From: a virus
Taxonomy: Duplodnaviria; Caudoviricetes
DNA: 37,065 bases
IMG/VR virus record: IMGVR_UViG_3300020042_006894
Location: 1-37,065 of that record
Direction: 5' to 3' (one strand)
The notes under the pieces: model-generated
Databases searched by the model: none
What the model saw: the letters and a program-made list of their open reading frames with translations, nothing else
What the model was told of the DNA's origin: nothing
Part shown: in pieces, positions 17,580-34,982 of the stretch
How the letters are laid out: the number at the start of each line of letters is the position of its first letter
Numbering within the stretch: the first letter of the stretch is position 1
Position numbers and translations under genes: made by a program

Positions 17580-18026
17580 TTAGCCCCTTTGCAATCCTGA
17601 ATTGCCTTTAACGAAAGGCATCAGCAAGCGGTCAAGCTCAGGCACTCGCGCCTTATATGTAACCTGCGAGCCGGATTCGTAACTAACTGACTTTGAACCA
17701 ACGCCGTCAAGTGATTTTGACTCTGCCGCAATCAATCCGCCAGCCAATACAGCTGCATCAAGTGACAATCGACCTGCCTGCTGTAGCTCTACAGCTTTCA
17801 ATGCCGCCTTGCTAATGTCAGCAATAGCAACAACATCAGTCGGCAAGCTCATTGCCTGCGCTGCGTCTAGCTCTTGGCCTTTGAAAGTGTAATATGTATC
17901 AATGAAGTCAGCAGATAAAATCAAATCCTGGTCAAGTGTTGCGTTTGATACAACAATGCCGCGCTCTGCTGCGTATGCTTCGTATAAAGCCGCTGTGGTG
18001 TAAGAGTTTGTGCCGAGTGTAGCCAT
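17580..18026 (-). CDS. Head-tail adaptor (often labelled DnaT-like)
   Basis: NSY...AYAAERG...SADFID...FKGQ...QAMSLP...KSVSY pattern. Confidence 0.7.
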   Translation of the reverse strand: MATLGTNSYTTAALYEAYAAERGIVVSNATLDQDLILSADFIDTYYTFKGQELDAAQAMSLPTDVVAIADISKAALKAVELQQAGRLSLDAAVLAGGLIAAESKSLDGVGSKSVSYESGSQVTYKARVPELDRLLMPFVKGNSGLQRG

Positions 18027-18376
18027 TACTTACCCCCGAAGGCGAACAAAGCTGCAATAGCTGCCGGACTAAGCAAAGTAGAAACCAGCAGCCAGCTAAT
18101 CTTGCCGCCGAAGTTTCTGATGCTGTCAATCATTGGCTGATTAGCTGCGGCTTGCTCGCGTAAAGCTCTGACGTCTTTTGATAGCTCGCTAGACTGAGCT
18201 GCAACGTGATCATGCTTTACCATATACTGCTGAAGGGTAACAACTAAATCCTGAATAGCCTTTGTCGATGACTTTTGACTTTCAATCATGTCACGGGAGA
18301 AACTGCGTATCTCGATGATCTCCCTGTCGTGCTGGTCTACTTTCTTCTGGATGCTGCCGATCAGTTCTTCGCTCAT
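18026..18376 (-). CDS. Coiled-coil protein with C-terminal TM helix (possibly holin-like)
   Basis: Heptad-rich N-terminus, WLLVSTLLSPAAIAALFAF C-terminus. Confidence 0.6.
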   Translation of the reverse strand: MSEELIGSIQKKVDQHDREIIEIRSFSRDMIESQKSSTKAIQDLVVTLQQYMVKHDHVAAQSSELSKDVRALREQAAANQPMIDSIRNFGGKISWLLVSTLLSPAAIAALFAFGGK

Positions 18377-18387
18377 GTTTCATAGCC

Positions 18388-18888
18388 TTACATAAATTTA
18401 GAATCACTATTAAAGCGATTATAGTTTGAACTGTTACCAGTACGCAAACAACTATTAATATGTGTTCGTTCAACGGCTGCACTCCCTAGCACCGCAAACA
18501 GCACGTCCAAAGGTATCGAGAACTCTTGACGTATAGCGTGCGCTTTATAAATCATTGATAAATTTGCTAATTGGTCTAACAGCATCGCGCCGTTTAACAA
18601 CAAGCTAGTCCCAATGATAGCGCCATAAGCGAAATAAATCCTTGTGAAATTGTGATGGAAAGTTGATAAATATATGATAGAGACAAGCATCAAGCTATCT
18701 ATACTGCATTGGATGGCATAAGTGCCGTATGTTGTTTCTGCATCAGCTTGCACAAGGCTGGTTATATTGTACGGAGTTGCGATCAGGAAGGTTAAGTAAT
18801 AGGCGATAATTAGAAAGCAGAGGTTTAACCCTCTGCCACTAAAAAGCCATATTGCCGCAATGACAATTAAAGCTGCTTCGTTACTCAT
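18388..18888 (-). CDS. Multi-pass membrane protein
   Basis: About four hydrophobic segments; ATGA-coupled to the upstream peptide. Confidence 0.65.
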   Translation of the reverse strand: MSNEAALIVIAAIWLFSGRGLNLCFLIIAYYLTFLIATPYNITSLVQADAETTYGTYAIQCSIDSLMLVSIIYLSTFHHNFTRIYFAYGAIIGTSLLLNGAMLLDQLANLSMIYKAHAIRQEFSIPLDVLFAVLGSAAVERTHINSCLRTGNSSNYNRFNSDSKFM

Positions 18889-18956
18889 TTTTTAGCTGGC
18901 TTCTTGCCGTTTGAGTTAACTGGCTTGTCTTTCACTGGCGTACCTTGCTTTGGCAT
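18885..18956 (-). CDS. 23-aa Lys/Pro-rich peptide (not in ORF track)
   Basis: AAGGGG RBS; MPKQGTPVKDKPVNSNGKKPAKK; stop overlaps the next ATG. Confidence 0.55.
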   Translation of the reverse strand: MPKQGTPVKDKPVNSNGKKPAKK

Positions 18957-18981: not shown

Positions 18982-19027
18982 ATCGCCGCGACTCATCCAT
19001 GAGAAGCTCCGGCGATTTAGTATAGCA
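18982..19027 (-). promoter_or_regulatory. Extended -10 promoter and leader hairpin with CsrA/RsmA-type site
   Basis: TGcTATACT (19027-19019); CUC-AUGGAU-GAG hairpin (19003-18992) inside an ATCGCCG/CGGCGAT stem. Confidence 0.5.
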
Positions 19028-19106
19028 TTTATTCAGCAGGCATACGCAATACTAAAGAACCACTTACATTTATAGCTTTGCGCTTACTTTTAGGAATTAC
19101 ACTTAC

Positions 19107-19133
19107 AAAAAACAAAACCAGCACAAGGCTGGT
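19107..19133 (-). terminator. Intrinsic terminator
   Basis: ACCAGC-cttgt-GCTGGT-TTTGTTTTTT. Confidence 0.8.
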
Positions 19134-19308
19134 CTGTTTGCTGCGGCTTCGGCATCGAGCAGCTACGACGGAAAGGTAGAAACCGTACTATGTGGACGGA
19201 AAGAACCTGCCTGCGACAATTTCAACAGAGAAGCTAAGGCGATTGGAGGAAGGCCAATCTAGTCTGTAACTCTGCATCGGCCATTAGTCGCCAAGCCTCG
19301 AGGTATGC
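19107..19308 (-). ncRNA. Candidate structured small RNA (~200 nt)
   Basis: No convincing ORF; upstream TTGCTA-17-TAATCT; nested stems; ends in a terminator. Confidence 0.55.
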
Positions 19309-19312
19309 AAAT

Positions 19313-19341
19313 AGATTAGCCTAATCAACAAAGTTTAGCAA
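19313..19341 (-). promoter_or_regulatory. Putative sigma70 promoter with overlapping palindrome
   Basis: TTGCTA (19341-19336)-17-TAATCT (19318-19313); GATTAG-C-CTAATC palindrome at 19314-19326. Confidence 0.45.
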
Positions 19342-19890
19342 CTATGGCCTTTCTTCCCATATAAGAGAAAATACGCCTGTCGCTGTGCCGCCATCTGCTG
19401 TAAGTCGCAAATAGTAATCACCCGCTGGCAATCCGCGCTCTGATGATGCAGTGAAGCCTACGCTCGCCTGCTGTGCTGTTGCGTTGGCTGACTTGACTCT
19501 TACAACTTCAGCAACTTGACCGCCTGACACTGTGCCGCCTGTGCTTATTGTTATTTGCCCCACGTATAATGGCTGCTCATCCATTCGATTCTTACCCCAT
19601 ACAGTAACCGGAGTATCAAAAGTTCCGATAGGCGTGCCACCGACAACAGCCTCGAAAATAACTATGTTTGCATCGCAGGTTATTACTTGCTCCCATAGGA
19701 TAAAGTTAACCGGACTGGAAAACTTAAATACCAATGATGCACCATGAGCAATTGAGTATTGCTGACTGATGCGAAACTCTCGGCGCTCAAAGAATCCTGT
19801 TTGGCCTATGTCTACTTTTAGTCTTGCTGTGTCCTTGCCTGATCCTGTCATAACTCCAGGTATGCCATTTGGAACGTATGGGTTTGACAT
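19342..19890 (-). CDS. Putative virion structural (head-associated) protein
   Basis: GGAG RBS; beta-rich; RLKVDIGQTGFF..REFR motif; downstream of the capsid gene. Confidence 0.6.
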   Translation of the reverse strand: MSNPYVPNGIPGVMTGSGKDTARLKVDIGQTGFFERREFRISQQYSIAHGASLVFKFSSPVNFILWEQVITCDANIVIFEAVVGGTPIGTFDTPVTVWGKNRMDEQPLYVGQITISTGGTVSGGQVAEVVRVKSANATAQQASVGFTASSERGLPAGDYYLRLTADGGTATGVFSLIWEERP

Positions 19891-19906
19891 TTTCACTACT
19901 CCATAT

Positions 19907-26878: not shown

Positions 26879-27631
26879 TTAAAACATATCCAATTGAATT
26901 TCAGACTTTGAGCCTGATTCCTTTTTTATTAAATTTATAGAGTCTGTCGAATTTAACTGCTCTATTCTTTCGACTAAAACGGCAGCTCTAGTCTCTTTGC
27001 TAGCTGGCTGATATGTTCCACGCCAAGCACTATCAATTCCGATATTGCGAGCGACATTCGTGCTATCCGCCGACGATAGCGGAAGCCTAGAAAAAACAAC
27101 AGGGTTCAGCATTCGCAGACCATGCAACTTACATATTGGCCTTCCGTTTCTATCGCAGATGTGCGGCAACACATCAGCCATGCGATCAATCAATCGCTCC
27201 GGCTTAGAAACGTCATATTCACCAGAGCTGCCAATTGCTACTGTTGGCCATTCATTTGCTAACATAACTAATCGATCAATTGATTCGTTTGTGTGCCAAA
27301 CTGCAGCAGCTTGATGCCGTTTAAATGGCCATAAATTCAATAGATCATTATTTTCTTTTTCAGTTCCTTCTATAACATCAGGTACAACTGCAAAATCGAA
27401 GCCTGGATGATTGCGCCATATATCTACCCATTTAAAATATGATGACCAATCAACTGACTTTCCAGTCTTCCAAAAGCTAAAAGCTCCGTTATCAAGTGAA
27501 AAACTCTGACAAATCTCAGCAGCCAAACCTAGCTGTCGATAATCCGCAAAGCTTATGAATGCATGCCTCCCTTTCCATGTCTTTATAGCGCATGGATCGG
27601 GAGTGATTGGGCCACCATGATAATGGATCAT
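26879..27631 (-). CDS. TGT/DpdA-fold putative base-exchange transglycosylase
   Basis: LDNGAF, PDV, HGL and SADS motifs in the order seen in tRNA-guanine transglycosylase/DpdA barrels. Confidence 0.65.
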   Translation of the reverse strand: MIHYHGGPITPDPCAIKTWKGRHAFISFADYRQLGLAAEICQSFSLDNGAFSFWKTGKSVDWSSYFKWVDIWRNHPGFDFAVVPDVIEGTEKENNDLLNLWPFKRHQAAAVWHTNESIDRLVMLANEWPTVAIGSSGEYDVSKPERLIDRMADVLPHICDRNGRPICKLHGLRMLNPVVFSRLPLSSADSTNVARNIGIDSAWRGTYQPASKETRAAVLVERIEQLNSTDSINLIKKESGSKSEIQLDMF

Positions 27632-33217: not shown

Positions 33218-33821
33218 ATTTGGTGAAGCCTAACTTTAGCAATTTTGAGTCATCGCCATTAAGCGCACACATCAGAGCGTCTATAGCTTTGGCCTTTATG
33301 TGATTGCTAACAGATAAAACTGCAATTGGACAACTTAAAGACCTCATAAACTCCACCGCGTCTTTTTCATCGCCGAAGTTGTCTAACCACTCATTACACT
33401 CGTTTATGCATGATTTCAAAAGGTCATCATTTGCAGAAACTAACTCTTTTGGTTGCTTTAAAATTTGAGACATTGCTTTATGTATCTTTTCAGATGCAAG
33501 CAACTCATCAGCCTCAATTTCTGCAACTCTTTTATCTGTTACCGCTTCGCAGAACTGATTTATAACATCAATTGCCTCGCTCATTTTTATCATAAAAGTT
33601 TCAGAAAAGATTTTTCTGTTAGAAAGGTGCTTATGTATTGAGTTTTCTATAGATAGGTGCGACTCAACCAATTCAGACACAAAATATTCAGGACTTTTGC
33701 AGCCGTTCATTGCAGCAAGAGTTTTTACTCTCTTATCTGGAAATCTAGATGCGCCAATCTTGACGAATCCATGCAGCTCAACAGCATAAATATATCCAAC
33801 TCTTTTCATTGTTAGCCTCAT
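33216..33821 (-). CDS. T5orf172/GIY-YIG-like domain protein
   Basis: GYIYAV...VKIGASRFPDKRV...IENSIHKHL...ETF. Confidence 0.8.
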   Translation of the reverse strand: MRLTMKRVGYIYAVELHGFVKIGASRFPDKRVKTLAAMNGCKSPEYFVSELVESHLSIENSIHKHLSNRKIFSETFMIKMSEAIDVINQFCEAVTDKRVAEIEADELLASEKIHKAMSQILKQPKELVSANDDLLKSCINECNEWLDNFGDEKDAVEFMRSLSCPIAVLSVSNHIKAKAIDALMCALNGDDSKLLKLGFTK

Positions 33822-33988
33822 TTCCAGTTTTGCAGATAGTCAGAAAGCGCCTTGACTGTACTGTAAGCCGGATCACACTCCTGGTTCATCAACTTATAAA
33901 CTGTGTTGTAATGAATGCCAGCAGCTTCAGCCACAGCCTTAAGATTGCTATGCTTCAGCCTGTCTTTGATTTGCTCTAGTGTTAGCAC
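33818..33988 (-). CDS. Cro-like XRE HTH regulator (56 aa, not in ORF track)
   Basis: GAGGA RBS, GTG start; NLKAVAEAAGIHYNTVYKL...PAYSTVKALSDYL. Confidence 0.85.
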   Translation of the reverse strand: MLTLEQIKDRLKHSNLKAVAEAAGIHYNTVYKLMNQECDPAYSTVKALSDYLQNWK

Positions 33989-34024
33989 GTTTATTTCCTC
34001 ACTTGGTTAAAATTACTCGTTAAT

Positions 34025-34065
34025 GTGTTGACAAGCATACAAGCATGAATTAAATTAGTCAACAC
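34025..34065. promoter_or_regulatory. Overlapping divergent sigma70 promoters
   Basis: + strand TTGACA (34028)-17-TAAATT; - strand TTGACT (34062)-17-TATGCT; GTGTTGAC/GTCAACAC inverted repeat; ACAAGCAT x2. Confidence 0.8.
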
Positions 34066-34085
34066 CAACAACGAGGAAAGAAGAA

Positions 34086-34982
34086 ATGAGCCAAGTAATG
34101 ACAATCCCCGACATGGTGCGAGGCGTAGAACCTGAGTGCCAGCAATTAATAACAGCGCACAATGCTGTCAATTGGCCTGCTGAGGCTAATTATGCAATGC
34201 AGTTACTTTGTGCCAATCCATTTGCCATGAGCATTGCTCAGCAAAACCCAGTTTCAGTGCAAAACGCGCTGCGTAACGCATCAGCAATTGGAATTAGCCT
34301 AAACCCAGCAAGTAAGCACGCTTATTTAGTTCCGCGCAAAGGTCAATCAGGCATGGCTATCTGCCTTGATATTTCTTACATGGGGCTTTTGCATCTTGCT
34401 ATGTCAACCGGATCAATAGAGTTCGGGCAGGCAAAGCTTGTTTATGCAAGCGACATTTACGAAAACCAAGGCGTTGACTCTGCGCCAATCCATAAATACA
34501 GCGCTTTTGGCAGTCGCGGCGATTTAGTCGGCGCTTATTGTGTTGTTCGCACATCGACAGGCGCTTACTTAACGGAAGAGATGGACATTAAGCAGTTACA
34601 TGAAGTTCGCGCACGATCAGAGGCTTTCAGTGGCGGAAAGCAAAACAAGCCACCATCAGGCCCATGGGTAACTGACTATGAAGAAATGTGCAGGAAAACC
34701 GTAGTTAAACGCGCATCAAAATACTGGCCTAAAGTTGACCGCCTGCACAATGCTATTGAATACCTAAACACAGAAGGCGGTGAAGGTATCAACAAAGAAG
34801 AGCCAGCGCGTGACGTGACGCCAATCAGCATTGAGTCAGAGGCTTGGCTGACTGATTACATGAATGCGCTGAACGACGAGCAAAAGCCAAAGATGATGGC
34901 TTGGCTTAAAGTCGAATCAATCTGTCAACTAACCGAGCAACAAGCTCAATCAGCAATTAAAACTTTGGGACAAAAGAAATGA
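34086..34982 (+). CDS. recT: RecT/Red-beta ssDNA annealing protein
   Basis: [45 protein letters not shown]. Confidence 0.92.

What the first reader, a model, noticed from the sequence alone, without database searches (positions are those of the whole stretch)
19107..19341. Candidate ~200-nt structured sRNA with C/U-rich loops in the head gene region
Seen: a gap with no convincing ORF in an otherwise tightly packed genome, bounded by TTGCTA-17-TAATCT and a strong terminator. On the - strand the 5' ~110 nt fold by eye into one long rod (ACCU/AGGU, GCUU/AGGC, GCGAC/GUCGC, CAGAG/CUCUG, GAUUGG/CCAAUC) with apical loop CCUUCCU. Two further hairpins follow (ACGG/CCGU and GCUGC/GCAGC). CUUUCCGUC occurs twice, and a bulged UCGAG could pair with the distal CUCGA. 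Inference: the anti-SD-like motifs may pair with purine-rich leaders. UUCUUUCC matches GGAAAGAA in the recT RBS (~34075), and CUUUCCGU matches ACGGAAGG in the leader at ~954. They could instead pair with the GGA repeats of host CsrB/Rsm RNAs. It may be a late RNA that shuts off early genes or acts as an anti-sRNA. These pairings are short and could be chance.
Basis: partly seen in the sequence, partly recalled or inferred. Interest (0 to 1): 0.75.

Follow-up and report, generated by a model that had tools for sequence, protein, structure and literature searches.

The report
Phage RNA with anti-Shine-Dalgarno loop
A roughly 195-letter non-coding element whose folded shape is kept by paired changes across dozens of related phages, and which matches no catalogued RNA family, carries an exposed loop that likely pairs with strong ribosome-binding sites to damp the translation of selected messages during infection.

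Summary
The RNA is real; its job is inferred. The minus-strand element (19107-19306) recurs in 34 other distinct sequences from mosaic siphophages and P22-like phages with unrelated capsids. 24 of 38 pairs show two-sided change, G·U outnumbers A·C 75 to 5 and no ORF is conserved. There is no Rfam match and no homolog in 50 genomes of the likely host genus. Architecture: a rod with an invariant kink-turn signature, an apical pyrimidine loop, a hairpin with a U-rich internal loop, an H-type pseudoknot whose second stem changes completely in two divergent homologs, and a terminator. The apical loop varies only as Y-Y-U-C-C-W. GGAGG is one of only three 5-mers that all five loop variants pair with, so I favour an anti-Shine-Dalgarno arm (0.4) over a protein decoy (0.3). 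Expression is untested.

The parts
19313..19341 (-). predicted sigma-70-type promoter, TTGCTA-17-TAATCT; start site predicted near 19306
   Evidence: sequence; same geometry in 21 of 36 sequences, other promoter-like pairs in most of the rest; activity untested
19107..19306 (-). structured non-coding RNA gene, about 195-200 nt
   Evidence: 32 distinct aligned copies, plus L148, L545 and L565; pair counts
19214..19290 (-). 5' rod: P1 (19290-19283 with 19220-19214), P2 (19275-19270 with 19230-19225), P2b (19262-19260 with 19236-19234), P3 (19259-19254 with 19246-19241)
   Evidence: P2 4 of 6 and P3 5 of 6 pairs with two-sided change; P2b C-G to U-A in 2 of 26; P1 mostly invariant
19222..19281 (-). 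predicted kink-turn: bulge 19281-19279, GAU 19278-19276 opposite UGA 19224-19222 (G·A, A·G, U·U)
   Evidence: G·A, A·G, U·U and the preceding G·A in 26 of 26; geometry inferred from the k-turn consensus (PMC5061560, start of abstract seen)
19247..19253 (-). apical loop CCUUCCU; family consensus Y-Y-U-C-C-W, anti-Shine-Dalgarno-like
   Evidence: variants CCUUCCU, CUUCCU, CCUCCUU, UCUCCA, one CCUACCU; predicted largely unpaired in 4 of 4 folded
19174..19208 (-). second hairpin: P4 (19208-19205 with 19177-19174), U-rich internal loop (19204-19200, 19182-19178), P5 (19199-19196 with 19186-19183)
   Evidence: P4 3 of 4 and P5 4 of 4 pairs with two-sided change
19140..19170 (-). predicted H-type pseudoknot: S1 19170-19166 with 19157-19153; S2 19163-19159 with 19144-19140; conserved CGA at 19151-19149
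   Evidence: S1 3 of 5 pairs covary; S2 is GCUGC/GCAGC here, UUGUC/GACAA in L545, CUGA/UCAG in L565; chance per sequence 0.05-0.08
19107..19135 (-). intrinsic terminator
   Evidence: 4 of 6 pairs with two-sided change
18984..19024 (-). neighbour, a separate element: extended -10 (TGC-TATACT) and leader hairpin with AUGGAU loop (CsrA-type site) before the small-peptide cassette
   Evidence: A-N-GGA or AGGA loop with varying stem in most cassette leaders printed; CsrA consensus recalled
19342..19896 (-). upstream neighbour, 184-aa protein of phrog_13935 (unknown function); not required, absent beside most copies

Best explanation
This is a self-contained phage RNA gene whose fold is conserved across related phages, and its kinked arm likely presents the apical Y-Y-U-C-C-W loop to GGAGG-type Shine-Dalgarno sequences of other messages, which would block their translation initiation. 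Shown: conserved secondary structure, strand, lack of coding signal, portability between unrelated head modules. Inferred: transcription from its own host-type promoter soon after infection; a kink-turn that aims the arm; a 3' pseudoknot and terminator that make the RNA stable; invariant internal loops that bind a host helper and supply the specificity that 5-7 loop pairs cannot. Likely targets are the few host messages with a full GGAGG site, for which the type I-F csy1 and csy2 leaders are a lead.
For: Of 1024 5-mers only GGAGG, GGGGA and GGGGG pair fully with all five loop variants (one of the five is the tentative homolog L361). Loop changes are C-to-U swaps opposite what would be G. The L545/L460 loop equals the 3' anti-SD of the host-genus 16S. 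The stem under the loop changes freely while the loop core does not. Carriers under-use GGAGG in coding sequence (25 seen, 170 expected under synonymous shuffling; non-carriers 113 of 249; host 68 of 187) and in leaders (8 of 359 versus 32 of 452). GGAGG is in only 11 of 309 sampled host leaders but in 4 of 4 csy2-type, 3 of 4 csy1-type and 1 of 1 cas5fv-type leaders, and I-F spacers of this genus match carrier phages (12 of 399 at 7 or fewer mismatches, 0 of 399 reversed controls).
Against: No target, transcript or binding was shown. Pairing is 5-7 bp, and 6 with a G·U for the main family. One copy has CCUACCU (L126). The GGAGG deficit is matched by a CCTCC deficit on the same strand (6 of 31 versus 18 of 51) and by other strand-symmetric deficits (CCGTG/CACGG), as restriction avoidance would give; the non-carrier G858 is just as depleted (2 of 33.5); the seven carriers are one recombining population, so p 0.007 overstates. 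The cas leaders are homologous, so about three independent cases; csy3/cas7 (0 of 5), cas6 (0 of 5) and cas1 (1 of 3) mostly lack GGAGG, gene names were given by order, size and recall, and only 6 of 50 genomes of the genus show such arrays. Most invariant letters lie in internal loops, which suits protein binding as well. 8 of 8 near-complete relatives that are hit by the same spacers lack the RNA.
Confidence: 0.4

Rival explanations
1. Protein decoy or scaffold: the RNA binds a host protein (a ribosomal or RNA-binding protein, a nuclease, or a defence toxin held by an RNA antitoxin) through the kink-turn, the invariant internal loops, the U-rich loop and the pseudoknot, and so titrates or neutralises it.
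For: Letters invariant in 26 of 26 cluster in non-canonical loops (GGUUA.AGA.U, UA.CUUC, UGAAAUUGU, CGA); a tertiary fold is more than an antisense RNA needs; no phage protein was found that is shared by all carriers and by the relative of the divergent lineage, so a partner would be host-encoded.
Against: No partner identified; no Rfam family of protein-binding RNAs, leaders or type III antitoxins matched; does not by itself explain the anti-SD-compatible loop variation.
Confidence: 0.3
2. Csr-network RNA: the UCC loop kisses GGA loops of CsrB-like RNAs, or the GGA-loop leader of the phage's own peptide/membrane-protein cassette, shifting CsrA control.
For: A conserved A-N-GGA hairpin leader lies 100-900 nt downstream in many carriers; the host genus has CsrB-like RNAs (5 of 5 genomes, below the Rfam cut-off).
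Against: The commonest host repeat AGGAUG gives 3-4 pairs and the cassette loops 3-4; the hairpin occurs without the RNA (L438, L604) and the RNA without the hairpin (L041, L619).
Confidence: 0.1
3. Cis element: a 3' stabilising or processing module of head or terminase transcripts, or a relic leader switch whose loop masks a downstream SD.
For: Always just downstream of a capsid, head-accessory or small-terminase gene; no clear promoter in a few copies; the tentative homolog L361 has no terminator and runs into a UGGAGG site.
Against: Own promoter and terminator in most copies; upstream and downstream genes are unrelated between copies.
Confidence: 0.1
4. One reading: a late RNA that shuts off the phage's own early genes through the recT and ~954 leaders.
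For: The linker 19182-19170 gives 11 pairs with both leaders; the recT-type leader recurs in G209 and G211.
Against: Energies only -9 to -10 kcal/mol, top hits differ between phages; the linker is partly helix P4 and is not kept in L545 or L565; matches at chance level.
Confidence: 0.07
5. RNA anti-CRISPR that pairs with or mimics the type I-F repeat.
For: Two main-family segments (19182-19177 and 19164-19159) together are the exact complement of the last 12 letters of the I-F repeats; the hosts' I-F arrays target these phages.
Against: Noticed after the fact; the second segment is replaced by unrelated pseudoknot stems in L545 and L565; no repeat family matched in Rfam.
Confidence: 0.03

Closest known systems
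Phage trans-acting sRNAs (VpdS of VP882, PreS of lambda, AsxR of Stx prophages; PMC12197685, first sixth of the text and three passages read)
   Same: Phage-encoded, intergenic, own promoter and terminator, proposed action on other RNAs.
   Different: Those are from temperate phages and act with Hfq; the review text has no mention of 'pseudoknot'. This RNA is far more structured, and five carrier records show no tyrosine integrase (0 of 5).
T-box stem I / kink-turn riboswitches (SAM-I, lysine, cobalamin; recalled, k-turn role from PMC4316175 and PMC5061560, start of abstracts)
   Same: Long rod with a basal kink-turn that aims an apical loop, then a second hairpin and an H-type pseudoknot.
   Different: No T-box bulge, specifier loop or expression platform; closed by its own terminator; no fixed downstream gene; no Rfam match.
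RNA anti-CRISPRs, Racrs (PMC10651486, start of abstract)
   Same: Small phage RNA in phages targeted by type I-F CRISPR.
   Different: Racrs are solitary repeat units; this is 195 nt and its repeat-like letters are not conserved.
Type III antitoxin RNAs (ToxI, AbiF RNA; recalled)
   Same: H-type pseudoknot of similar size.
   Different: Single copy, no toxin gene in cis, large extra 5' domain, no Rfam match.
Orphan structured phage RNAs (GOLLD, ROOL; PMC12286853, listing and start of abstract; candidates of PMC10690425)
   Same: Free-standing structured RNA of unknown function in phages.
   Different: Much smaller; its letters were not found in 7 searchable supplement files of PMC10690425, but files 1 and 2, too large to read, may hold it.

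Membership tests
Any Rfam 15 family | covariance-model score at the gathering threshold | tested here: not met
   0 hits in the window; best local E 9.5; nothing over the element in L545, L565, L361 beyond a terminator-driven E 0.2
Structured trans-acting sRNA | conserved secondary structure with compensatory change | tested here: met
   98.3% of cells paired, 24 of 38 pairs two-sided, score 0.46 against at most 0.08 when slid (alignment fitted to the model); 18 of 43 on the plain MAFFT alignment
Structured trans-acting sRNA | no conserved coding frame | tested here: met
   internal ATG lost in 4 of 26, 3 codons in 10, 7 in 1, 27-29 in 6, 37 in 4, 56 in 1
Structured trans-acting sRNA | discrete transcript from own promoter | tested here: inconclusive
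   promoter geometry conserved; only contigs were available, and those in RNA libraries run past the terminator
Structured trans-acting sRNA | demonstrated target or Hfq/ProQ binding | not testable with these tools
   needs experiment
Kink-turn | bulge of about 3 nt followed by G·A and A·G pairs | tested here: met
   26 of 26 for the pairs; bulge 3 nt in most, 4-6 in some, one 19-nt insertion at the bulge
Kink-turn | kinked geometry on ion or L7Ae binding | not testable with these tools
   needs FRET or structure
CsrB/Rsm sponge (plus strand) | many GGA loops on the transcribed strand | tested here: not met
   functional strand is minus: 75 G·U against 5 A·C cells, terminator and promoter on minus
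Racr (solitary repeat unit) | resemblance to the host CRISPR repeat kept across homologs | tested here: not met
   repeat-complementary segment lost in L545 and L565
T-box riboswitch | antiterminator with UGGN bulge upstream of amino-acid genes | tested here: not met
   no such segment in the alignment; downstream genes vary; motif recalled
Type I toxin-antitoxin locus | conserved short hydrophobic ORF with antisense partner | tested here: not met

The most novel reading that the evidence does not exclude
A new class of phage RNA that works as a free-floating mimic of the 16S anti-Shine-Dalgarno tail: a kink-turn arm holds the loop out, a pseudoknot protects the 3' end, and the RNA silences the small set of host messages with a full GGAGG site, including the Cascade backbone genes csy1 and csy2, while its carriers purge GGAGG from their own genes.
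Probability: 0.15. Interest if true: 0.9.

Novelty: new variant of a known kind. Interest (0 to 1): 0.64.

Why it matters
Phage small RNAs with known functions are few and mostly simple Hfq-dependent antisense RNAs of prophages. This is an uncatalogued, tertiary-structured RNA in apparently lytic phages, short enough to synthesise, with natural variants (a 3'-domain deletion, two divergent homologs, five loop sequences) that make a structure-function study direct. If the anti-SD reading holds it is an RNA-level route to selective host shut-off or counter-defence; if it is a protein decoy it points to an unknown host factor in phage defence.

Tried and rejected
Single-sequence folding was uninformative (z -1.05 minus, -0.65 plus). 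No match in cultured phage records, none by one exact pattern in GTDB contigs, none in 301 family genomes apart from a shared terminator after tRNA-Arg, none in 98 capsid-related or chance-pattern loci beyond terminator noise, none in 50 genomes of the host genus (8 weak hits, all alignments viewed terminator-driven). The first pair count used a mis-registered structure string and is superseded. The regular-expression prevalence count misses copies with A at one pattern position; the model-based counts are used instead. Expression: 8 of 13 listed runs hold part of the element, none half of its words; all were contigs, those in RNA libraries run beyond the terminator, so no finding. Complementarity to SRP and 6S RNAs from five Alteromonadales-like genomes was 6-11 nt and not shared by all variants. 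A U-rich triple-helix clamp for AGAAA and complementarity to the I-F repeat were attractive in the main family and fell with L545 and L565. Self-avoidance of the exact loop complement AGGAAG was not seen (rank 2225 of 4096). L460 first looked like an ancestral one-domain form but is better read as a deletion of the L545 type. L361/L362 is not detected by the model; it is kept as tentative on a 12-letter match at the same position (0 of 200 shuffles). Host naming through protein clusters could not be made; RecT, capsid and DnaB searches did not name a host. Literature: searches listed no paper describing this RNA; only listings and starts of abstracts were seen except where stated.

Full report
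Setting. The window is a complete 37,065-base virus record with direct terminal repeats: a lambdoid-style siphophage with replication, RecT, head and tail genes and no integrase among 65 proteins scanned. The finding lies on the minus strand between a 184-aa gene downstream of the major capsid gene and a cassette of a 23-aa peptide, a 166-aa membrane protein and a 116-aa protein.

Is it real? Alone the sequence folds no better than shuffles and matches no Rfam family. Pattern scans of viral and metagenome contigs gave 32 distinct copies including the window (53 matching loci; alignment) and one more (L148). Conservation starts just after the -10 box and ends at the U tract; flanks are unrelated. 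On the plain alignment 98.7% of cells pair and 18 of 43 pairs change on both sides, against at most 3 when partners are slid. A last, looser scan (120 loci) yielded two divergent full-length homologs, L545 and L565 (101 and 88 bits). With them 24 of 38 pairs change on both sides (26 sequences chosen from the 35, alignment fitted to the model). G·U cells outnumber A·C cells 75 to 5, fixing the minus strand, and the internal ATG frame is absent, 3 codons, 7, 27-29, 37 or 56 codons long in different copies. TTGCNN-17-TAATCT lies at the same place in 21 of 36 sequences and other promoter-like pairs in most others.

Anatomy. The 5' rod has a mostly invariant basal helix, then a bulge followed by G·A, A·G and U·U in 26 of 26, the sequence signature of a kink-turn (PMC5061560, start of abstract); one copy carries a 19-nt insertion at the bulge. 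Above it lie a covarying helix, an invariant asymmetric loop, a 3-bp helix with one compensatory change, and a freely covarying apical helix. The second hairpin has two covarying helices around a U-rich internal loop. L460 is an L545-like copy lacking the whole 3' domain. L361/L362 hold a probable distant homolog without terminator (not found by the model; 12-letter match at the same position, 0 of 200 shuffles).

Distribution. Copies sit right behind three unrelated capsid types (323, 378 and 421 aa), behind head-accessory genes, or behind a small terminase gene, and are followed by varying inserted genes. By the model, 6 of 6 loci with a capsid 95% or more like the window's and 14 of 15 with a head-tail adaptor 91% or more alike carry it (the miss lacks upstream DNA); 0 of 11 loci at 90-93% capsid identity do. 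Eight near-complete relatives examined in detail lack it. No tyrosine integrase was found in 5 of 5 carrier records. The host is probably one genus of 50 species in an Alteromonadales-like family: 12 of 399 type I-F spacers from 6 genomes match carriers at 7 or fewer mismatches, many with a CC PAM, against 0 of 399 reversed controls; the window itself has one 6-mismatch hit, and all 8 non-carriers are hit too. Its 16S looks to me like the Rheinheimera/Alishewanella group (recalled, from no call). No homolog was found in those 50 genomes. No phage protein tracks the RNA into the divergent lineage.

How it may work. After the divergent homologs, little single-stranded sequence is left that could pair with a target. 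The apical loop keeps Y-Y-U-C-C-W. Only GGAGG, GGGGA and GGGGG pair fully with all five variants; the canonical SD gives 5-7 pairs with each, the dominant CsrB repeat AGGAUG 3-4. Carriers use GGAGG less than non-carriers in coding sequence (25 of 170 expected against 113 of 249) and in leaders (8 of 359 against 32 of 452), and the truncated-RNA phage G855 has the most GGAGG leaders (10 of 62). Against this, CCTCC and other motif pairs are also low on both strands, G858 is depleted without the RNA, and the carriers are kin, so restriction avoidance explains the pattern equally. In the host, GGAGG is in 11 of 309 sampled leaders but in 8 of 9 csy1-, csy2- and cas5fv-type leaders and 1 of 13 other cas leaders of those types I could place (names by order, size and recall; about three independent cases). 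I therefore commit to an anti-SD arm acting in trans at 0.4, with a host-protein decoy at 0.3 because most invariant letters sit in internal loops. Both could be true, since 5-7 pairs need help for specificity. Transcription, timing and targets are untested: public RNA runs were contigs only.

Comparison and novelty. It works most like a phage trans-acting sRNA (PMC12197685, first part and passages read) and is built like a kink-turn riboswitch or T-box 5' domain (recalled), but fails membership of every Rfam family, of T-boxes, CsrB sponges, Racrs (PMC10651486, start of abstract) and type I toxin loci. Eight literature searches listed no description, and its letters were absent from the 7 readable supplement files of PMC10690425; two large files could not be read and may list it as a candidate. 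The scan's own index had nothing on this sequence and one unrelated note by place. Verdict: a new structured phage RNA family, existence about 0.95, mechanism open; interest 0.64.

Noticed in passing
window 18984-19024 (-) and 18026-18956 (-): A conserved leader hairpin with an A-N-GGA loop (AUGGAU, ACGGAU, AAGGAU, AGGAU, AUGGAC) and varying stem precedes a short lysine-rich peptide, a 137-172-aa membrane protein of at least three sequence types and a holin-like gene in carriers and some non-carriers. It looks like CsrA control of a possible lysis or signalling cassette; the membrane protein has only unnamed look-alikes.
   Followed up: partly
L022, L035, L127 (about 400 nt after the RNA): An inserted gene of about 105-125 aa is flanked by a second copy of the RNA's last 40 nt, so the terminator end serves as a cassette boundary for gene insertion.
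   Followed up: partly
window 19063-19106 (-): Three GTAAG repeats 19-20 nt apart just after the terminator, also in several homologs; possibly operator sites.
   Followed up: no
L361 4364-4537, L362: A 174-nt non-coding insert in the same slot shares the kink-turn left strand, a UCUCC loop and the pseudoknot, lacks a terminator and runs into the peptide's SD; probable distant homolog used as a leader.
   Followed up: partly
L460 7815-7931: Natural deletion variant with the 5' rod joined directly to the terminator; the next gene's SD is the exact 7-letter complement of its loop.
   Followed up: partly
window, whole genome and other carriers: Strand-symmetric deficits of CCGTG/CACGG, CACCC/GGGTG, GGGTC/GACCC and CAGCTG in carrier phages but not in most relatives suggest unrecognised restriction or BREX-type sites in the host.
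   Followed up: no
window 26879-27631 (-): Queuine tRNA-ribosyltransferase-like gene (phrog_887), probably a DNA-modification gene, with no other queuosine-pathway genes named by the scan.
   Followed up: no
window 33818-34086: Only a small Cro-like gene faces the RecT operon across about 100 bp; no CI-like repressor or integrase was named, so the phage looks lytic despite its lambdoid layout.
   Followed up: no
window 18742-18762: A 13-letter copy of the terminator's GCACAAGGCTGGT lies inside the 166-aa gene; probably chance.
   Followed up: no
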